A model generated the notes under the pieces. That model searched no databases, was not told the origin of the DNA, and worked only from the letters and a program-made list of their open reading frames with translations. A DNA stretch of 64,000 bases from Malacoraja senta (lineage: Eukaryota): contig CM075990.1 of NCBI GenBank assembly GCA_038087875.1, positions 14,696,001 through 14,760,000 of the forward strand, read 5' to 3'. Shown one piece after another: positions 3,516 to 28,162 of the stretch. A program made the position numbers and the translations under genes. Each line of letters starts with the position of its first letter. Positions within the stretch are counted from its first letter, which is position 1.

Positions 3516-3791
3516 TGTTTTGAATTGGTGTTGAGCTTCCAGGTAAGAGGAGAGTGACCTGTCATATTCCCAGTTTGTGTCTTGTGGAGGATGGGAAGGC
3601 TTTGGGTTATCAGTCAGTGAGCCACTCACCATAGGATACCCAGTTTAGCTCCTGTGGTAGTTCCATTGGAGTTTCTGATCACTGGTGACAACCTAACCTT
3701 CCCACTCTGGTAGGAAGTGTGGGAGAGATCAACATGCACGTGGAAAATCATATATTATCGTGGGATATCCCTTAGATCAAGCCTATCAGGA

Positions 3792-4187
3792 CTGAGACAA
3801 AAGCACACTGGATAGCCACCAAGTGGTCACAGGAGTGGAAGGCAACCTCATCTCCATTACACAGCTACATCTCTTCACCAGATAAAAACTGTCCAGAGTC
3901 TGACCTCCCCAGAGGAGCATGGGTGAAGCTCAACAGACTTGGTACTGGAGTTGGGCGTTACAATGCCAGCATGTGGTGATGGGGGCTCTGCCAGAGCCCA
4001 GCCTGTGAATGCGGAGCAAAACAACAGACAGCCAACCATGTTACTTCTGGGTGCCCGCTCTACCACCCACCAAATGGAGCTCAGGGCCTGGGAGATATTG
4101 ACGCAGAGACAACAACCTGGCTGCTCAACACCCAGCTTGAGATCTAACTATTCCTTTGGTTTATGTTTCATTCGCAAGAAGAAGTAG
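3792..4187 (+). mobile_element. Vingi/Ingi-clade LINE, 5'-truncated 3' end, with 13-bp TSD
   Basis: Frame 3794-4147 reads ...DLPRGAWVKLNRLGTGVGRYNASMW*WGLCQSPACECGAKQQTANHVTSGCPLYHPP...WLLNTQLEI* (CCHC knuckle typical of Ingi/Vingi ORF ends). Tail CGCAAGAAGAAG. TSD AAGCCTATCAGGA at 3779-3791 and 4188-4200. Confidence 0.8.
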
Positions 4188-4337
4188 AAGCCTATCAGGA
4201 AATATGATTAAATTCTACTTTAAAAAAATTAGTTGTTCCATGACGCCATCGTGACCAGTTTTTGAAGTGTTCATTGATGTGTCAGAAGGACAAGTTGATT
4301 TCCTAATAAAGGGAACTTCAAGGTACAGATATGTGTT

Positions 4338-5798: not shown

Positions 5799-6075
5799 CT
5801 TCTTCTTGCGTTTGAGGCAGCAGACGTTACGTAACGCCCTCCAGGCGCTGTAGACAGTTTGGCCATCCGCATTCAGCTGCAGCAGGGTGATGCCGCCCGG
5901 TTTGACCCTAAAAATGGTGCATGCTCCAGGTTGGCGCCAAGCCATGGCAACAGAGGTTGCATTAGGGCTGCAAGCTGCGGCGACTGAGGTTGCATTACTT
6001 CTGCTGCCATCTCTGTTTGTTGTCGCTCGTCAGTTGACAGGGCTCACCACGGGGAAGTCGACAACATGAGCCCCC
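5799..6075 (-). mobile_element. Short non-autonomous retroposon with 5' HDV-like ribozyme and Vingi-type (GAA)n tail
   Basis: Minus strand starts GGGGGCTC... and ends CGCAAGAAGAAG. TSD AGCACCAGAAGT (5787-5798) / AGTACCAGAATT (6077-6088), 10/12 identical. Confidence 0.75.
6018..6074 (-). ncRNA. Candidate minimal HDV-like self-cleaving ribozyme (57 nt)
   Basis: GGGGCTC-A-TGTTGTCG-ACT-TCCCCGT-GGT-GAGCCCT-G-TCAACTGA-CGAG-CGACAACA. P1 is 7 bp with a G1.U wobble, P2 is 8 bp perfect, P3 is 3 bp, L3 is UCCCCGU and J4/2 is CGAG. Confidence 0.75.
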
Positions 6076-7357: not shown

Positions 7358-7547
7358 GGTAGTAAGCTTAAAGAAAAGCGTAATTGATCATAATATTCCA
7401 AAATGTTTTATATTGAGTTAACCACATTTGAAATGCAGTAGATATGTGTACCGAATAGCGAATGGATATCACTGAAAATCAAATAATTGTCATTGTGAAT
7501 GTGTAAAAGTATTTTTATAGTTGGGGCACTTTTCTACTTTGTTACAA

Positions 7548-8110
7548 GGTGTATAAGAGGTGTACAAGATCATGACAGGAATAGATTGGGTATATGCACA
7601 GAGTCTCTTGCCCAGAGTAGGTGAATCGAGGACTCGAAGACATAGCTTCAAGGTGGAGGGGAAAAAATTTAATAGGTATCTGAGGAGTAACTTTTTCACA
7701 CAAAGGGTTGTGGGTCTTTTTCTCGTTGAGTCCACACACAAGATTAGAAGTTTTTCAGCCAGAGCTGAACACATGTCTCGGCATCTGCATACAATGGTGT
7801 CTGTCTTGTGCTTCTTGTGCTTCTTGTGCGTGGTGGTGGAAAGATTGGTGGAAACAGGGCCACGACGTGAATGCTATTTCCTTGACCCCAGGGTGGTGGG
7901 TGTATGGAACAAGCTGCCAGAGGAAGTAGTTGAGGCAGGGACTATCCCAACTTTTAAGAAACAGTTAGACAGCTACATGGATAGGACAGGTTTGGTGGGA
8001 TATGGACCAATTGCGTGGAGGTGGGACGAGTGTAGCTGGGACATATTGGCCGGTGTGGGTAAGTTGGGCCGAAGGACCTGTTTCCACACTGTATCACTCT
8101 ATGACTCTAA
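7548..8110 (+). mobile_element. CR1 LINE 3' fragment interrupted by a 174-bp insertion
   Basis: YKIMTGIDWV...RTRRHSFKVEGKKFNRYLRSNFFTQRVV | insertion | RVVGVWNKLPEEVVEAGT, the typical CR1 ORF2 C-terminus. Confidence 0.85.
7716..7889 (-). mobile_element. Second short retroposon with a degenerate HDV-like 5' head, inserted in CR1
   Basis: TSD AGGGTTGTGGGT (7704-7715) / AGGGTGGTGGGT (7890-7901). Minus strand starts GGGGTCAAGGAAATAGCATTCACGTCGTGGCCCT and ends CTCAACGAGAAAAAG. Confidence 0.65.
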
Positions 8111-9049
8111 GATTATTATTGGGCATATGGGGTTCACTGACAAGATCAGTATTTATTTTTCATCTCTTTAATGTTCACAAAGTGGTCACAATTCAACTGA
8201 CGAAGGTACTCCATCATTGCTGTTGGAATGGCAATTCCCAGATTAGACCCAGTGCTAATGTAGGATCGTTGTGATGTGTCTTGGAGGGGAGCCTGCAGTT
8301 AGTGATGTGCAGAATATAATTCTGCTGCTGACTTCCCTTTGCATCACATGGATGTCCATTCTAAGGTGCCAAATCGATTCAGAATCTTTTCCCATTGAGC
8401 AGGGTGATAGCACCATAGTGCAGGCTGCAGGAGGTCCTTTATGAGACTTGTCTTTGCAAAGACTGGGGAACAACCATTGTCCAGTGGAATGCATATTGTT
8501 CTTGCTGATGCTTATTATTAAGTTCTCAGATGCAAAAATTAATATGAATGCTGCAATTTGCCAGTGTAGTTAATTAAATCCAATTTTTAGAAAATCTGCA
8601 AAATGTTTTTGCATTGCATGTTTAATCCACATAGGCACCACAAATGAATTTGATTCAGAGATAACCTTACTATGTAGTCAAATCATTGTTAGTTTAGAGA
8701 TTGAATGCTGACTAATTATATAGAATCTGGGCCAGATTCATAGGTTATACCTTTTGAAAAGAAACATGATTCACTTTTCCTTCATTCATCTGGAGCAAAC
8801 AAAATGACTGCCAGATTTGTCAGTCTTGTTTGCAGTGAGTCTTGGCTCATTGGCAGTTTTTTCATCTTCTTGACTTAGAAAATTATGGATCCAATCCACA
8901 CACTGTGCAGTTTGGAGGAATGGAGTCTTCCAGGAGATACGGGTCAAATAACGCACCATCTCTCCCATTTCATGCAAAAGATCCTATGACATAATTTGGA
9001 GAATGGTCTCCTGCCAATTGCGATCTCACATCAACCCCAATTTTTGAAA

Positions 9050-19312: not shown

Positions 19313-21706
19313 CATATTTAAAAAAAACAATTATAGTGCAATATTAACAATAACCATCTATGTAGTTCAGAGCTATTTGGAGGTTGTAGTGTTTAATAGT
19401 CTAATGTGGGAAGAAGCTGTTCCTGAACCTGGACCGTACAGTTTTCAAGCTCCTGTACCTTCTACATGATGGCAGGGGTGAATTGAGTATGTGGCCAGGG
19501 TGGTGTGGGTCTCTGATGTTGCTGGCTGCCTTTTTGAGGCAGCGATTCTGGTAAATCCTGTCGATGGTGGGCAGGTCAGAACCCGTGATGGACTGGGCAG
19601 TGTTCACAAGTTTTTGCAGTCTTCCCTCCTGAGCATTCAAGTTGCCGAGCCAGGCCACGATGCAGCCAGTCAATATGCTCTCTACTGTACACCTGTAGAA
19701 GTTCAACTCTACAAGAGATCGGAGTCCAATATGTGTTGTATTACCTATTCTTCTGGGTAGATATTCTGAGGAGGGTTTGGTGCAATGTGGTGCAAAAGCC
19801 TGAATGTGATTGGGGTATAGGAGAGTGGTGTGATGTGGCATGGCATTGGAGATTTCAACTGTGGACTGACTCAATGATGGCAGGGGAAGACAGAAGCCTT
19901 TATTCTTGCTCATACACAATCTTGGAAAGCGACCTAGTTTCCTTCTTCATAAGACAGTTCTTGCTGCACTTGGCTGCTGGATTTTTCAAGGCCTAATGTT
20001 AAAGTTTAAATGGGAATACAATAAGAGGTAGGTGCTTTATCAAACCACTTAAATGAGGCACACACCTCCTGACTTCCCTCAATACTTCCAATAAAAGTTT
20101 GTTGAAAGTTGACCTGAAACATTTACTCTGCTTTTCTCCACCAATGTTGGCTGACCTGCCATGCATTTCTAGAAACCTCTGTTTCTCCTTCAAATTCCCA
20201 ACAACTTGTAATTTTAGACAAAGTGAATGCTGGAGTAACTCATCGGGTCAGGCAGCATCTCCGGAGAAAATGGCTTGGTGACGTTTTGTATCAGGACCAT
20301 TCTATAGTGGCAGAAGGCCACTACACCTTCAGATGGATTGTAAGATGGGGGGGGGGGGGGGGGGACTGGAAGCAAGATAAGCTTATTATTTTACTCTTGC
20401 AAGTCTAGTACTTTCATGGGGTACTTTTCAAAGCCATCATAAAAGCAGCATTTTGTATAGTTGCCCAATTTATCAATTAATTAATTATTTTACTGTAAGC
20501 CATTAGCTTCAGGTTTTAATTTTATGTGTATAAGAATGTGCAGGCATGTAACTTCAGTTGTATTTTCCATTTGCTTTTTAACTTGTGTAATTTTATTGCT
20601 TGTTCTGTATTAAGCAGAATGCATTTTCAAGTAATATTTCAATGAAGCAGATCCGTTTGTCATCAGTTTTCTCTAGAGGACTTGATCGGACTTAGAATAA
20701 CTTCAGCCAATGTTTGTGGGTTTCCTGTGTGCTACAAAATATCTAGGCTTAATAAAAAGATCTCTTGTGAAATGAAGCAGAATCCATGAACGGTAATGCA
20801 GTTTGCTGAACTTCAGAAGTTCCCCATGATCACTTTGCCAAATGTTGCAATGGTTTGAGAAATTGGGCATTTTCACACTTGGAGATAGTTCGAAAATTTA
20901 TTAGCTATTCATGTGTGGCAGGAGTCAAGGAGATCTGATACTTAAATGCATAGAAAAGGTTACTTGAGATTTAAAATTTGCAATTATACCTCTTTGCAAC
21001 ACTTTCACAGCAAAACCAATTTCTGCGATTTGGCCATGAATCTATTTGATGCATTGCATACACTGACATTACAGATTTTGACCTTTGTTATCATGAGGAC
21101 ATGAAAGCCACCCCATCATAAGCCCATCTATGTCTGTAGAAATGGCCTGATCACCAAATGTGACATGTTAATACGGAACGAATAGAATATATTTTTTGAC
21201 AAGACATGAAAAATCACCCTGTGGCAGTTGGCACGGCGAATACATTTCAGTAGAGACACTAGTAAAGTAAATCTGACAAGTAAAGAGGAGAGATGATGGT
21301 TAGAAGGTGCTTTTTGTTTCGCATTTTTTTGACCTGTCAAGTTTCAAAAAAGCTGAATGGCCGTCTTTGTCGTGTGGAAATTGTAGTGTGAAGCAGTTAT
21401 CTCTGTTAAAATTGTGAAAGCTGGTTTAATTGATTCACTTAAGGTCTGATTCTGTCAAATATTAATAATTGCCAAACTCTGTTCAGAGATATAACTCCAA
21501 TGTGTCATGTTAAAATGTGTACTTATCAAAGAATTAATATCGTTAATGAACCAGTGGTTTGAAACTAACATTGCATGAAATTGTGTCTGCCCTTTCATAT
21601 TGCTGAAGGTAGATCAACAAGCTTTCAGGGGAGAAGTAATAACTTGCAACATTGGAGTTCCATTTGTATGGTAAACCAAGTCATGTCAGAGATTGAAGTG
21701 CTACTT

Positions 21707-21931
21707 GTGTAGGAAAGAACTGCAGATGCTGGTTTAAATCAAAGATAGACACAAAATGCTGGAGTAACTCAGCAGGACAGGCAGCATCTCTGGAGAGAAG
21801 GAATGGTTGATGTCTTGGGTCGAGACCCTTCTGAAGTCTGAAGAAGGGTCTCGACCTGAAACGTCACCTATTCCTTCTCGCCAGAGATGCTGCCTGTCCC
21901 GCTGAGTTACTCCAGCATTTTGTGTCTATCT
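21707..21931. mobile_element. Penelope-derived hairpin element with 14-bp TSD
   Basis: About 90-bp inverted arms. TSD TTGAAGTGCTACTT at 21693-21706 and 21932-21945. Confidence 0.9.
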
Positions 21932-22429
21932 TTGAAGTGCTACTTTACAGTTTAAGAAAGATCCAAGGATTTCAAGAGTCGAGCTACATGCGTGGGATTG
22001 GGAAAGGAATGGTCAAACTTTGGACTAAGCAGACAGTCTGTAGGACTATGAAGGATCCCTTTTGGATTTGCAGGTGATGGACTTTGATGTATTATTTTTG
22101 TCAAGCATATTACCTTTCTTGGTTTAATTACAAATCAAAAATACATACTGTAGTTCTGTTGAGTTCCCATCAGTTTAATCAAGCATAGAAATGCAGATAG
22201 TTATCTTAATTCTTAACAAATTTTATGGGTCATCTAAGAAGTTAATATTACCATTTATTATTATTTATTTTGCAAGGGATCAACATGGATTAGTCTACAG
22301 ATCAGTGCCAGTCATGTTAAATTCACTATTTAAACACAAAGGAACTATCCATTAGCCTGCCAGTGATCTTAATAACTAATGTTAAAAGGGCTCTCTTAAC
22401 TGAACGTCCATGAGGATATACTCAACTTT

Positions 22430-23167
22430 TCCGACATTTTCGCCACCTCCAACGGAATCCCACTACTAGTCACATCTTCACATCTCCACCACTTTCTGCT
22501 TTCCGCAGAGACTGCTCCCTCCGCAACCCCCTGGTCAACTCTTCGCTTCCCACCTAAACCCCAGGTACTTTCCCCTGCAATCGCAGGACATGCAACACCT
22601 GTCTCTGTACTTCCCTCCTCGACTCCGTCCAAGGACCCCGGCAGTCTTTTCAGGTGAGGCAGATGTTTACTTGCACTTCCTCCAAGCTCATCTACTGAAT
22701 CCGCTGTTCCAGGTGTGGACTCCTGCAGGCTCTGCGATTGTTTTGCTGAACACCTCCGCTCAGTCCGCCTACACCTACCTGATCACCCAGTTGCTCAACA
22801 CTTTAACTCCCCCTCCCATTCCCACACTGACCTTTCTATCCTGGGCCTCCTCCATTATCAGAGTGAGGCCCAGAACAAGTTGGAGGAATTGCACCTCATA
22901 TTTTGCTTGGGTAGCTTACACCCCAGCGGTATGAATATTGACTTCTCTAACTTCAAGTAGCCCTTGCTTTCCCTCTCTCTCTCCATCCTCTCCCCCTTCC
23001 CAGTTTTCCGACCAATCTTTCTGTCTCTGATTAACTTTTATTTCTGTACCGCCCACTCCCATGACATCAGTCTGAAGAAGGGTCTCGACCCAAACCATCA
23101 CCCATTCCTTCTCGCCAGAGATGCTGCCTGTCCCGCTGAGTTACTCCAGCATTTTGTGTCCATCTTC
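22430..23167 (+). mobile_element. Penelope-like retroelement 3' part: disrupted GIY-YIG endonuclease plus 3' UTR
   Basis: AFRRDCSLRNPLV, PGTFPCNRRTCNTC, FTCTSSKLIY*IRCSRC, FAEHLRSVR...PVAQHFNSPSH...LIFCLGSLHPSGMNIDFSNFK* (stop 22960). The YIG segment appears deleted. A mutated hammerhead-like core lies at about 23090. Confidence 0.85.
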
Positions 23168-23914
23168 TACTCAAATTCTTGGTCGGCATGTGGCTCGTGT
23201 GTTTATAACCAATACTTTTGAAGTGCAGTCACCATTGTTACATTAGCAAGGTTATGTAGGTAGTTCTGTACCATCAACCTCACACAAAAAAAAATATGAG
23301 GTGACTTCCCAGTTGGGCTACTTTCAGTGGCATCAGTGGGGGAGCAGTTGCCCAGATGTTTGGACAAACCCTTTACATCTTTAAAGTAGGTGTACTCAAA
23401 GAGATATTTAACCTCCCAACAATAGGAGCTGGTGTTGACAATATACTACATTCTCTGCATTGTATCTTCAGTCTTTCTGAGTTTCAAACTACATCCTTTG
23501 CCTCAGACAAGAGGGTGTTAAAGATTATTACTGCTGAAAGATATTTAAATATGTTTACATTAAGTTCAAGACTCTCAATAAAGGAATGAATTTGGGGTTA
23601 GTGTTCATTTTTTTTGCATCCATCTTTCTCCGGGTCTTCATTTATTTTAAAACAAGACCCCTTGTTTTAAAATAAATGAAGTCATGTTGCCAGCAAAATT
23701 CTGAAAATGTATGTTTAAATCAAATGTACTGATGAAATATGCTTGCCTAGATTGTTGAGATGATCACTATCAATTAATAGCCTAAAACCACCTTTTCTTT
23801 TTGATACCGCACAAGCGGTTTATTTACCGGTAATTTTATAGAGATTTTTTGGATCAAAAATATGGTTTGCTGAAAATGTCCGAGCAATGTTGAAATTAAT
23901 AACCCATGCTATCT

Positions 23915-24075
23915 GTGTAGGAAGGAATTGCAGATGCTTGTTTACACAGAAGATGTTCACAAAATGCTGGAGTAACTCAGCAGGTTTGGCAGCATCTCTG
24001 GACAGGAGGAATATCCTTCTATACAGAGATGCTGACTGCCCCACTGAGTTACTCCAGCGTTTTGTGTCTATCTTT
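23915..24075. mobile_element. Penelope-derived hairpin element, centre deleted
   Basis: Inverted arms; degenerate TSD cccatgctatctgt / cccataccatctgt. Confidence 0.7.
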
Positions 24076-24539
24076 AGCCCATACCATCTGTTGCACCCAA
24101 TACTACACTGTGCAATGTACATTACTCAACATTGTCTTCGTTGACCTAACCGACTTGAATTGACACAGCACATAAAACGGAGCATCATCACAACAGAAAA
24201 GAAGGTGCAGTGAGAGGTCAGGATGATATAGCTACACACACATATTCCATTGCAACAACATGATTACAGGTATTATAGAAGTTTTACAATTATAAAAGAA
24301 TGGTGTAAGGTTGACGGTAATAGATTTTTTTTGTGCAGTTGAGAACTGAGGCTCATCTATGCAAGATAAAATGCAAACCATGGAAGAAATTCAGAAAGTG
24401 GAGCCAAAGTTTTTCTTGTGAGACTTGTTAAGTTCAAGTGAGTTTATTGTCATGTGTCCCTGATAGGACAATGAAATTCTTGATTAAACTTGTTGATTAA
24501 CTGAAACGCATTGGGCTTTGCGGACATTCTATTAACTGA

Positions 24540-25720
24540 ATGTGCATACCATACTTGCTGAGGTTGCATTTGGAGTATTGTGTTCAGTTTTGGTCACCCT
24601 ATAACAGGAAAATGTTGTTGAGCTGGAAAGAGTGCAGAGAAGATCTACAAGAATGTTGCCAGGATTTGAGGTCCTGAGCCATATGGAACGGATGGGTAGG
24701 CGACGACTTTATTCCTTGAAGGAGGATGAAGGGTGACCATATAGAGGTGTATATATAGATAGTAAGTAGTTTTTACACTGTTATTGTGGAGTATCGGTAT
24801 TGAGAGGGCTCTGGGGATTGTTGTAGAGCAGATAGATCTAGGGGTGCAGATACTGTACCTAGTTCACTGAAAATGGTGTCACAGGTAGATAGGCTGGTCA
24901 AGAAGGCTTTTGGTACATTGCCCTTCATCAGTCAGGGCACTGAGCATAGAAGTTGGGATGTTCTCATACAGTTGTGCAAGACGTCGATGAGGCCACATTT
25001 GGAGTAATGTCTTCCGTTTTGGTCACCCCTGCTAAAGGAAGGATTTTGTCGAGCTGGAAAGAGTGCAAAGATAGACAATAGACAATAGGTGCAGGAGTAG
25101 GCCATTCGGCCCTTTGAGCCAGCACCGCCATTCAATGTGATCATGGCTGATCATCCCCAATCAGTACCCCCATTCCTGCCTCCTCCCCATATCCCCTGAC
25201 TCCGCTGTCTTTAAGAGCCCTATCTAGCTCTCTCTTGAAAGTATCCAGAGAACCGGCCTCCACCGCCCTCTGAGGCAGAGAAATTCCACTGATTTACAAT
25301 CATGTTGCCTGGGACTTGAGAGTCTGAGCTTGAGGGAGAGGTTGGGCAGGCTAGGACTTACATTCTTGGAGTGCAGGAGGTTGAGGGGTAATCTTATTGA
25401 GATGTATAAAATAATGAGGGGAATAGAATAGGTTGAATGCACCAGGTCTTTTTACCCAGAATAGGGGAATCAAGATCCATAGGCCAATTGTTTAATGTGA
25501 GAGGGGAAAAGATTTAATGGGAACCTGTGGGGCAATATTTTTTCCCCACAGACACTGGTGGGTACATGGAATAAGCTGCCAGAGGAGGTAGTTGAGGTAG
25601 GTACAATAACAGTATTTAAAAGACATTTTGGGCAGGTACATGGATAGTAAAGGTTCAGAGGGATATAGGTGTAGATATAGGTTTGGCATGGACATGTTGG
25701 TCCGACTGGCCTGTTTCTGT
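24540..25720. mobile_element. Cluster of nested CR1 LINE fragments on both strands
   Basis: Plus-strand fragments (cacatttggagta...tcagttttggtcaccc...ctggaaagagtgcag) are split by a minus-strand CR1 3' end at about 25070-25290 with an (ATTGTCT)n tail. Confidence 0.75.
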
Positions 25721-27005
25721 TTTAGTGTGTGAGTCTGACTCGGATGTGGTAACGGTTACCCCATAAACTTGTCAGGCAAAATACCATTTGGCTTGCTGAG
25801 AAGCCAGCTTGCTGAGAAGCCAGCTCCGTTGCACAAACTCTTTAGAAGCAGGTTGACGATTAACTGTTGCTGTTATTTCAACACTCACCCAGGGTTTTGA
25901 TTGCGAAAGTGAAGTCATCGCACAATCATAATGGAGGATTGAATATGGGGAAACGTGGCAATAAAAGCTTGGTGTATAGTTTAGTTTACAGTGAAAAGCT
26001 TTTGTTGCATGCTATCCAGTTAGCGGAAAAACAATACATGATTACAATAGAGCCGTTTATAGTGTATCGATACATGATGAGAGAATAATGTTTAGTGCAA
26101 GGTAAAGCCAGCAAAGTCCGATCAAGGATAGTTTGTCGAGGGTCACCAATGAGGTAGATAGTAGTTCAGGACTGCTCTTCAACTGTGATTGGGAACAGGT
26201 TTCTTTCACAACATTTTGCTAACTTACTCCATCTTGCTGGGATTAGTATTGTCTGTGTAACTTTAGATTGGAGAACAAATCCTATCAGCAGCTGGCCACG
26301 GCTTTGTAACTGGAGCGGAGGCCACCCGTGAGCTACAGTTCTGGGAGACGGTCAGTAACTGGGTTCCTTGTCAGCTGTGATCACCGGTGCCTCGGATGTT
26401 GCAGGAAGACATGACACACAACTGCATCTGACAGTCTGAAGAAGAGTTCCGGCCTAAATCATCATCGCCTGTTCATTCCCTCCACAGATGCTGCCTGACC
26501 CGTTGAGTTCCTCCAGCACTCAGTGTCTGGATCTGACAATGGTTTGCCACCAGCTGGGACAACTGGCCACTTGTTATTTGTGGCTGCCATAAGCTTCCCG
26601 CCCCCCTCCGCCCCAATCTCAAAGCCTTCATGTATTAGATCCTTCCAGGGCTTTGCTTCCAGCATCAACATCTTGTGCACAAGTGCATCAAAGAGGCCAC
26701 TTAGGGCGTGTGTGCCAGAACAGATAATTGTCATCTTTGTCTGCACTGATGCTGGTCAAAATATTGAGCTAGTGGCTGGCTAGGCAGTTCTGGCTGGAGG
26801 TTTACAGTGAAAGGTGTAACCAGCTGCATCTACATTGGCATCCAAACGTTCCCAGATCAAACGGGCATGATCGCTGGGAGAGGGGAAAGTGAGCAATGAA
26901 CCTTTTCACAGGCCTTCTCCCCTTACCTGTTCATGACTGAGTTACTCCTCAGTGCCACCACAGCGCAGGACCTCCTTGTGTAGCCAAGATCCATGAGCAT
27001 AGTTA

Positions 27006-27580
27006 AGGGCCTGTCCCACTTGGACTAATCCACGAGTTTAGAAGACCCTAGACGAGTTGAAAAAATGTCAATGTCGTGTTGACTTGCCGAAGTAAAAGAC
27101 CTCCTACGACCTCCTACGACTATGTCTACGACCTCCTACGACTATGTCGATGACCTCCTACGACCCCCCTTGACCTCAGTCTTCCACACCTAAGACCAAC
27201 TACGACTAGCTACGAGTGGAAAATGATCAGATGATAAAATGATGTCATGTCTGCATTTTTTTTCTTGGGCCAGTTACCGACCTACGACTACCTACGACTA
27301 TCTACGACTACCTACGACTACCATCAAGACCTACTACGACATACCTACGACTTACCTCCATGCCGACTTTTTTTTACTCGTGGACATTTTTATCAGGCTG
27401 GAAAAAACGCCGCGACCTACTTGAGGCCACGAGTACGCGGAGACCACTCACGAGCATGAGGAAGAGTTACAAAGACCTCCTACGACCTCCTACAACCCCG
27501 TGGTGAACATGCTGCGAGTATGAGTCAAGGGCAAACTCGGCAGAGGTCGCCAATTAGGTCGTGAAAGTGGGACAGGGGCT
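27006..27580. mobile_element. PIF/Harbinger-type MITE (TIR AGGGCCTGTCCCACTT, TSD TTA) with internal GACCTCCTAC/CTACGA repeats
   Basis: TTA|AGGGCCTGTCCCACTT...AAGTGGGACAGGGGCT|TTA (TSD 27003-27005 and 27581-27583). Confidence 0.8.
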
Positions 27581-28162
27581 TTAAGGAATTGGATGTAACT
27601 CCATGCTGGGGCTGAGGGTGTCAGTTGAGTTGGACAATCAATCGTGTTGGCTACTTTTTGCACAGTAGAAGTCAATTCCAAATCCTGCAACATCCTTTGC
27701 CTTAGTTGAAGTTTACTCCTTCAACCTTTCTGCCATCTGTCGAGTGTTCTGCGAAGGCATTTACAGTAAGTGATGCTGCTCAATGGTCCTCTTTGTTGAT
27801 GAGGGAACTGTAAATTCAATGAAGCAAAACATGGAGAGGAGTGAGCCCATCCGCACACACATTCAGCAGCTTTCTTTGATTGTGAGTTGTGAGACATGGG
27901 TGAAAGAAAGGGGATCTGTATTTAGATGGTGCCTTTCAAACTTTTTCAAAATATCCTCAAGGGCTTCACAGCAAACCGAGTGGTTTTTAAATGTAGTTAA
28001 TATTGAAACTAAGGAAACAGAACAGCCAAATTGTGTGCAGCAAGATCCCACAAATGGGAATATGTTATCTGTGTGATAATTAATTTTTGTAATGTTGGAA
28101 TCTGTAAGAAAATCTGAATGAATAAATGAATAATGTCACATGTACAGTGAAAAGTGTTTATA

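What the first reader, a model, noticed from the sequence alone, without database searches (positions are those of the whole stretch)
7716..7889. A second, sequence-distinct short insertion also starts with an HDV-like fold and ends in a similar tail
Seen: a 174-bp insert in a CR1 fragment with an 11/12 TSD. The minus strand from its first base (7889-7838) reads GGGGTC AA GGAAATA GCA TTCACGT CGT GGCCCT GTTTCCA CCAA TCTTTCC. P1 is GGGGTC/GGCCCT (G1.U), P2 is GGAAATA/TCTTTCC (one mismatch), P3 is GCA/CGT, L3 is UUCACGU, P4 is absent and J4/2 is CCAA. The P3 defects are what CpG decay of GCG/CGC would produce. The tail CTCAACGAGAAAAAG resembles CTCAAACGCAAGAAGAAG of the 5799-6075 element. Inference: the same architecture with different helix sequences argues against a chance fold and for several families of ribozyme-headed retroposons. 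This copy is probably inactivated.
Basis: partly seen in the sequence, partly recalled or inferred. Interest (0 to 1): 0.72.

Follow-up and report, generated by a model that had tools for sequence, protein, structure and literature searches.

The report
Ribozyme-headed short Vingi retroposon family
This 174-base insert is a worn copy of an abundant short jumping element whose front end folds like a hepatitis-delta-type self-cutting RNA and closely resembles both the front end of Vingi retrotransposons and the mammalian CPEB3 ribozyme, which suggests where that ribozyme came from.

Summary
The insert and its 11/12 TSD are real. It is one copy of a high-copy family in four organisms, and the family's 5' edge is the predicted cleavage G. 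The majority letters restore P3 to GCG/CGC as predicted (73-94%). P2 is not restored: its U.C mismatch is family-wide. The fold is not chance: an HDV descriptor hits only this insert and the 5799-6075 element in the window (1 hit in 150 shuffles), and P2 shows three compensatory pairs against relatives. The head matches Rfam CPEB3 (E 0.008, below cut-off). The same core heads a full-length Vingi-type LINE found in metagenomes. The published 5' end of Vingi-2_Gav matches the CPEB3 consensus at 52 of 54 compared positions. Best reading: a non-autonomous, internally deleted Vingi derivative whose RNA trims its own 5' end; this copy is impaired. A competing helix in place of P4 may silence the whole family, and cleavage is untested. 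Ribozyme-headed short LINE derivatives are known (NARTc, SIDER, R2 SIDE). I found no paper in the library that gives Vingi a ribozyme or derives the CPEB3 ribozyme from Vingi.

The parts
7716..7889 (-). Whole element: non-autonomous retroposon copy, 174 bp
   Evidence: family in 4 runs
7704..7715 (+). Target-site duplication, copy at the element's 3' end
   Evidence: 11 of 12 identical to 7890-7901
7890..7901 (+). Target-site duplication, copy at the element's 5' end; its last base on the element strand is the T at -1
   Evidence: 10 of 14 listed pieces that reach the 5' edge also match 7890
7884..7889 (-). P1 5' strand; 7889 is G1, the predicted cleavage site and the family's 5' edge
   Evidence: 14 of 32 listed pieces end at 7889-7891
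7875..7881 (-). P2 5' strand; U at 7876 is family-wide and mismatched
7862..7874 (-). P3-L3-P3' core; this copy carries two non-majority letters (7872, 7862)
7856..7861 (-). P1 3' strand (6 nt, G1.U wobble at 7856)
7849..7855 (-). P1.1 G and U plus a 5-nt loop in place of P4; also the 3' strand of the competing helix
   Evidence: minority variants at 7850 and 7851
7845..7848 (-). J4/2 CCAA; 7848 is the predicted catalytic C (C75 equivalent)
   Evidence: no other letter at 8% or more; same CCAA in L019
7838..7844 (-). P2 3' strand
7804..7829 (.). 9-bp tandem, 2.9 units; gaps of about 9 in many family pieces suggest one extra unit in this copy (inferred)
   Evidence: table 8
7744..7797 (-). Probable remnant of a LINE ORF end (PLYADAETCVQLWLKNF then stop)
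   Evidence: PSSM P about 0.01 with one gap, post hoc; not among HMM hits
7716..7730 (-). 3' tail, a worn form of CA(A/T)(A/T)CGC plus (AAG)n
   Evidence: family depth drops and 7 of 32 pieces stop at 7728
7545..8110 (+). Host LINE 3' fragment (CR1/HER1 type, name recalled); limits approximate
5799..6075 (-). Sister element B: complete HDV-like head (7-bp P1, perfect P2), related 3' end, decayed TSD 10 of 13
3792..4187 (+). 5'-truncated 3' fragment of a Vingi-type LINE with a perfect 13-bp TSD (3779-3791 / 4188-4200) and an (AAG)n tail; shows the likely mobilising clade is in this genome

Best explanation
A copy of a high-copy, non-autonomous retroposon made by internal deletion of a Vingi-type LINE: the 5' head is joined to the last 85 or so bases. 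The head is a minimal HDV-like ribozyme of the CPEB3 sequence type (6-bp P1, no P4). How it works: a host transcript runs into a master copy (inferred); the ribozyme cuts before G1 and gives the RNA the element's exact 5' end (inferred from the fold and the 5' edge, not assayed); the ORF-end remnant and tail recruit a Vingi endonuclease/reverse transcriptase in trans (inferred); target-primed reverse transcription leaves a 12-bp TSD (TSD shown). This copy then lost two P3 CpG bases and is probably weak or dead.
For: Multi-copy in 4 of 4 runs, 5' edge at G1 with unrelated flanks beyond. P3 restored by majority letters. Descriptor hits 2 in the window, both at element starts, versus 1 in 150 shuffles. 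P2 has 3 both-side changes against each of L012, L013 and L019 and 5 against element B. Rfam RF00622 hit, 18.9 bits, E 0.0083. The same core heads L012, a 3.1-kb single-ORF APE-RT element with no RNase H hit. The head agrees with labelled Vingi-2_Gav at 20 of the first 28 positions (22 with majority letters; counted by eye). A Vingi-type 3' fragment with a like tail lies at 3792-4187. R2 ribozymes tolerate 6-bp P1, P2 mismatches and no P4 (PMC3774820).
Against: Native P2 is weak (-3.7 kcal/mol as a duplex) and a near-duplicate strand in the P4 position pairs as well or better (-4.3; 8-bp form -7.9). That helix has pair probability 0.97 with or without the majority letters in a pseudoknot-free model. 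The Rfam score is below the gathering cut-off of 35. The 3' part does not align significantly with the Vingi-type fragment, L012, L009 or L019 at DNA level (p 0.16-0.79). No autonomous partner of this family was found. L012 was placed in Vingi by architecture and head, not by a labelled tree.
Confidence: 0.56

Rival explanations
1. Same origin, but the ribozyme was already silent in the family's master copies. P4 was replaced by a short duplication of the P2' region that traps the P2 5' strand. The 5' end is then set by an internal promoter in the head, as Pr77 does in L1Tc, or the head is kept only as a protein-binding or protective fold.
For: Competing helix favoured; the two strands are 12 nt apart and share TTTCCACCA; the P2 mismatch is family-wide; some trypanosome SIDER heads are inactive in vitro (PMC4035085 passage).
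Against: Catalytic C, both J4/2 As, L3 and G1.U show no common variant, while minority variants at 7850 (21% in X6) and 7851 (6-14%) break the competing helix and not P2. P1+P3 (-9.5) is complete before the competitor (-7.2) during transcription (kinetic reading inferred). The model cannot score the pseudoknot.
Confidence: 0.3
2. A ribozyme-headed bipartite element of another clade (Ingi proper, RTE or an I-group lineage), or a Vingi head that has swapped onto another LINE's tail.
For: A and B share a D-x7-W spacing at the ORF end where the Vingi-type set mostly has D-x5-W. RTE and Ingi are known to carry such ribozymes and to give bipartite derivatives, and tails can be exchanged (PMC5786205). 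The partner search failed.
Against: The head matches a labelled Vingi 5' end and L012. The tail motif recurs in the Vingi-type fragment at 3792-4187, in L012 and in L019.
Confidence: 0.12
3. A chance fold in an unrelated short repeat.
For: Folding z-score of the head is -0.5; Rfam match below cut-off.
Against: Descriptor rate 1 in 150 shuffled windows; position at the first base; majority letters repair P3; compensatory P2 pairs; 0 of 17 prokaryotic and viral matches to the same core pattern have both P1 and P2.
Confidence: 0.02

Closest known systems
Vingi clade LINEs and their internally deleted derivatives (Vingi-2_Gav, Vingi-1_EE derivatives, SINE2-1_AMi; Kojima 2018, PMC5786205, passages and supplement passages read)
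   Same: Head sequence (20 of 28, 22 with majority letters, against Vingi-2_Gav nt 2-29), bipartite build, no coding capacity, a 6-nt P1' as in SINE2-1_AMi.
   Different: [quoted passage not shown]
Mammalian CPEB3 ribozyme (Rfam RF00622)
   Same: Ungapped match over model positions 13-46, 25 of 34 identical (27 with majority letters); identical P3-L3-P3 core; single C-G plus U.U type P1.1 position.
   Different: P1 one pair shorter, P4 absent, P2 mismatch, score 18.9 against a cut-off of 35; a multi-copy retroposon head, not a single conserved intronic RNA.
NARTc, RIME and SIDER (L1Tc/ingi clade) and R2 SIDEs
   Same: Short non-autonomous LINE derivatives with an HDV-like ribozyme at the exact 5' end.
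   Different: Vertebrate host, Vingi-type head, no target specificity evident, about 170 nt long.
Minimal HDV-like ribozymes (drz-Mtgn-1, theta; PMC10879173 passages)
   Same: No P4, catalytic C first in J4/2.
   Different: Not phage, not tRNA-linked; heads a retroposon.

Membership tests
HDV-like ribozyme | P1 of 6-7 bp starting at G1 paired with U or C | tested here: met
   6 bp with G1.U; 7 bp in the HDV descriptor, 6 or 7 bp in R2
HDV-like ribozyme | 3-bp P3 closing a 7-nt L3 with conserved U, C, G | tested here: met
   Met by majority letters in 4 runs; this copy has one A.C mismatch and one G.U
HDV-like ribozyme | P2 pseudoknot of at least 5 bp | tested here: inconclusive
   6 of 7 with 3 compensatory pairs against relatives, but out-competed in energy estimates
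HDV-like ribozyme | P1.1 between L3 and the base after P1' | tested here: met
   G then U follow P1' as in RF00622; positional only
HDV-like ribozyme | Catalytic C at the start of J4/2 | tested here: met
   C at 7848, no variant at 8% or more; second base is C where the descriptor has a purine
HDV-like ribozyme | Self-cleavage before G1 | not testable with these tools
   Needs an assay
Rfam RF00622 CPEB3 ribozyme | Score at or above the gathering cut-off of 35 bits | tested here: not met
   18.9 bits; no hit at gathering in the window
Non-autonomous bipartite Vingi derivative | 5' end homologous to a Vingi 5' end | tested here: met
   20 of 28 against Vingi-2_Gav by eye; shared core with L012
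Non-autonomous bipartite Vingi derivative | 3' end homologous to a Vingi ORF end and tail | tested here: inconclusive
   PSSM P about 0.01; tail motif shared by eye; DNA alignments to Vingi-type ends not significant
Non-autonomous bipartite Vingi derivative | Dispersed copies with shared ends and a TSD | tested here: met
Non-autonomous bipartite Vingi derivative | Autonomous partner identified and placed in Vingi by a reverse-transcriptase tree | not testable with these tools
   No genome held, no labelled Vingi proteins; searches found no partner
tRNA-, 5S- or 7SL-headed SINE | Small-RNA-derived head with Pol III boxes | tested here: not met
   The ribozyme fold starts at base 1; Rfam shows no such match in 7700-7910 at E up to 10

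The most novel reading that the evidence does not exclude
Vingi retrotransposons as a clade carry a CPEB3-type HDV ribozyme at their 5' end, spread in tens of thousands of short derivatives such as this one, and the mammalian CPEB3 ribozyme is one such Vingi head that landed in the CPEB3 intron and was kept. Basis: Vingi-2_Gav nt 2-74 matches the RF00622 consensus at 38 of 40 and 14 of 14 positions (by eye); L013 scores 66.5 bits, above the cut-off, in a contig whose flanks do not match the model's 5' flank; a Vingi-type LINE carries the core (L012); the human genome has a Vingi relic, X12_LINE; the CPEB3 ribozyme was reported as not found outside mammals. It may be noted in papers or patents that I could not see.
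Probability: 0.65. Interest if true: 0.8.

Novelty: new variant of a known kind. Interest (0 to 1): 0.62.

Why it matters
It would extend 5' HDV-like ribozymes to the Vingi clade and to an abundant vertebrate short-repeat family of the order of 10^4 copies per genome (rough). It supplies outgroups for the mammalian CPEB3 ribozyme, whose deeper ancestry could not be traced for lack of them (PMC8233481), and makes a retrotransposon origin directly testable. Vingi-1_Acar UTRs are used in gene-writing templates; the review I searched mentions ribozymes only for R2 (PMC13708176), so a self-cleaving head could bear on template design. The single copy itself is an ordinary decayed insertion.

Tried and rejected
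No second copy of either element in the window. No genome is held. Rfam at gathering scores finds nothing in the window. No RNA holder listed. No listed contig spans the whole locus, so presence or absence of this insertion in other individuals or species is unknown. The loose-end table was swamped by host-LINE reads, so the family's tail was not read. HMMs of Vingi-type N- and C-termini did not rank the insert or element B among the top hits. The window's Vingi-type C-terminal peptide found no relative. Element B's 46-aa frame gave only 10 repeat-protein hits, none a LINE. No Vingi-type locus in viral contigs. The core pattern gave 2 viral and 15 prokaryotic matches, all without the full fold, used as controls; 8 of the 15 were also run against Rfam with no ribozyme hit. 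The 12-bp body hairpin is not above shuffles (z -1.2). The MAFFT alignment of seven heads put 6-bp and 7-bp P1s out of register, so pairs were counted by script instead. The alternative 7-bp P1 that starts at T 7890 was rejected because it uses up the P1.1 G. Kojima 2011 and Ruminski 2011 are not held. The ESM Atlas gave no clade name. PDB holds only L1, R2 and group II relatives of the L012 protein.

Full report
OBSERVATION. The sequence is as described. The 174-bp insert at 7716-7889 lies between two 12-mers that agree at 11 positions. It interrupts a LINE reading frame between FFTQRVVG and RVVGVWNKLPEEVV; the CR1/HER1 name, and the reading that the host is a shark or ray, are recalled and come from no call. 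In four public runs from four organisms and four studies, contigs of other host-LINE copies jump from 7702-7715 to 7890-7910 (table 5), which is the uninterrupted state. I wrote a general HDV descriptor (6-7 bp P1 from G1, 7-position P2 with at most one mismatch, P3 with at most one mismatch, L3 T-Y-C-N-C-G-Y, G after P1', C-N-A-R before P2'). It finds two sites in the window, 7889 and 6074, each at or one base from the start of a TSD-flanked element, and one site in 150 dinucleotide shuffles. The descriptor was written after I had seen both heads.

THE FAMILY. There is no second copy in the window, but all four runs cover the insert deeply. Summed depth divided by the depth of single pieces gives medians of 20,000-28,000 (range 4,000-50,000). 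The tool warns that depth is not a copy number, so this is an order of magnitude only. Of the 32 pieces listed (out of more than 133,000, chosen as the longest or at joints), 14 end at 7889-7891 and most continue into unrelated flank, so the family's 5' edge is G1 and the insert is not an internal piece of a longer element. Ten of those 14 also match the T at -1 (p 0.0015), which may be a target preference. The P2 prediction is not met: no other letter reaches 8% at 7876 or 7843. Depth falls toward both ends, so a hidden allele cannot be wholly excluded, but 7872 lies in the same zone and shows its variant. No variant is listed at the catalytic C or the J4/2 As. Other majority differences are 7753, 7774, 7775 and 7809.

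WHAT THE HEAD RESEMBLES. Rfam's CPEB3 model matches 7889-7856 without gaps (18.9 bits, E 0.0083, cut-off 35); its two flagged non-pairs are the A.C pair of P3 and a U/G position in P1. I scanned collections with a degenerate core pattern. Of 20 metagenome loci, 5 have P1 (at most a first-position mismatch) and P2 with at most one mismatch (L005, L012, L013, L015, L019), and L009/L010 have a perfect 6-bp P1 with a decayed P2; 0 of 15 prokaryotic and 0 of 2 viral matches have both. The core itself is shared by construction; the rest is not. L012 is a 3.1-kb element with one 1028-codon frame, endonuclease and reverse-transcriptase domains, no RNase H hit, a C-terminal Cys/His motif seen by eye, and a CATACGC plus microsatellite tail. 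That fits the description of Vingi as single-ORF and RNase-H-less (PMC13708176, passages) and the 3128-bp length of Vingi-2_Gav; I had no labelled tree. L009 joins a ribozyme and the ORF start to the ORF end. L019 is a 104-nt element with the same CCAA junction, a tail and a 9-bp TSD. Across heads the P2 letters change together: against L012, L013 and L019 the insert has 3 both-side changes each, against element B 5. The supplement of Kojima 2018 prints the 5' end of the labelled family Vingi-2_Gav. By eye the insert matches its first 28 printed positions at 20 (22 with majority letters), and Vingi-2_Gav matches the CPEB3 consensus at 38 of 40 and 14 of 14 positions on either side of the variable P4 tip.

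THE 3' PART. The last 90 bases resemble those of element B beyond chance (3 of 5000 with tails, 64 of 5000 without), and both keep a short frame with D-x7-W. The insert's frame scores against a Vingi-type C-terminal profile at P about 0.01, post hoc and with a gap, while B scores best on the N-terminal profile, so which ORF part this is remains open. The window holds a 5'-truncated Vingi-type fragment at 3792-4187 (tblastn E 1.7e-18; 13-bp TSD) whose tail CATTCGC-AAGAAG is of the same form. DNA alignments of the insert to that fragment, L012, L009 and L019 are not significant, and no partner was found. The Vingi assignment therefore rests mainly on the head and the tail form.

AGAINST ACTIVITY. 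The P2 5' strand can also pair with the bases right after P1', where relatives have P4. As duplexes: native P2 -3.7, the 6-bp alternative -4.3, the 8-bp alternative -7.9, B's P2 -9.7 kcal/mol. In a pseudoknot-free model the alternative has probability 0.97 for both this copy and the majority letters. On the other side, P1+P3 is -9.5 with majority letters and -5.2 in this copy, minority variants at 7850 and 7851 break the alternative and not P2, and R2 ribozymes include 6-bp P1 stems, P2 mismatches and no P4 (PMC3774820, passages). I put the chance that the family's master RNA cleaved at a little under two in three.

MECHANISM. Shown: dispersed family, shared 5' edge at G1, TSD, conserved core, covarying P2. 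Inferred: read-through transcription, cleavage before G1, mobilisation in trans by a Vingi protein through target-primed reverse transcription, later CpG decay of this copy. This follows the role described for R2, L1Tc, RTE and Baggins ribozymes (PMC6765202, PMC8256844, passages).

KNOWN AND NEW. Short ribozyme-headed LINE derivatives are known in the L1Tc/ingi and R2 clades, and bipartite Vingi derivatives are known (PMC5786205, passages). That paper names six ribozyme-bearing clades, not Vingi, and does not mention CPEB3 in its main text. Searches for Vingi with ribozyme (6 papers), Vingi with shark (2), CPEB3 ribozyme with origin and retrotransposon (19 held, 18 listed) and an exaptation query (2) showed no title or abstract that links Vingi to a ribozyme or to CPEB3. 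[quoted passage not shown] Kojima 2011 and Ruminski 2011 were not held; Webb 2009, Webb and Luptak 2011, Repbase reports, patents and bioRxiv supplements were not seen and may already hold these links. HDV-like folds in lamprey, lancelet and sea urchin are in print.

VERDICT. A real, decayed copy of a ribozyme-headed, probably Vingi-derived short retroposon family: a new variant of a known kind. The higher-value lead is the near identity of Vingi heads with the CPEB3 ribozyme. Interest 0.62.

Noticed in passing
window 3792-4187 (+): 5'-truncated Vingi-type LINE fragment with Cys/His motif, one stop codon, (AAG)n tail and a perfect 13-bp TSD.
   Followed up: partly
L013 3490-3579 and L015 3501 (+): A ribozyme scoring 66.5 bits against the mammalian CPEB3 model (cut-off 35; L013) with a longer P4. 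No long frame, tail or TSD was seen downstream, and L015 carries a decayed reverse-transcriptase fragment upstream. The contig does not look mammalian (inferred).
   Followed up: partly
L012 200-3310 (+): Full-length Vingi-type LINE with an intact frame that is open through its own ribozyme head; the first P1 position is T, as if G1 was replaced at insertion.
   Followed up: partly
L019 125-228 (-): A 104-nt retroposon that is little more than a ribozyme plus tail, with a 9-bp TSD and an extra T before G1.
   Followed up: partly
L009 1530-1270 (-), L010: Bipartite element with 6-bp P1 whose ORF start is fused to the ORF end at a shared GLS-like stretch.
   Followed up: partly
L004, L005, L016: Minimal heads without P4 and with a 5-bp P1, followed by A-rich sequence; possibly a ribozyme-only retroposon.
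   Followed up: no
window 7833-7822 with 7743-7732 (-): 12-bp inverted repeat that closes the element body into a long hairpin; not above shuffles.
   Followed up: partly
window 7557-8171 (+): Insert plus TSD is 186 bp and stop-free, so the host LINE frame stays open through it; probably chance.
   Followed up: no
window 19317-18265 (-): 351-codon reverse-transcriptase fragment of another LINE (L2/CR1 group by recall).
   Followed up: no
PMC5786205 supplement: The alligator SINE2-1_AMi carries a Vingi head behind its tRNA part with changes at G2 and in L3, as expected if cleavage had to be lost there.
   Followed up: no
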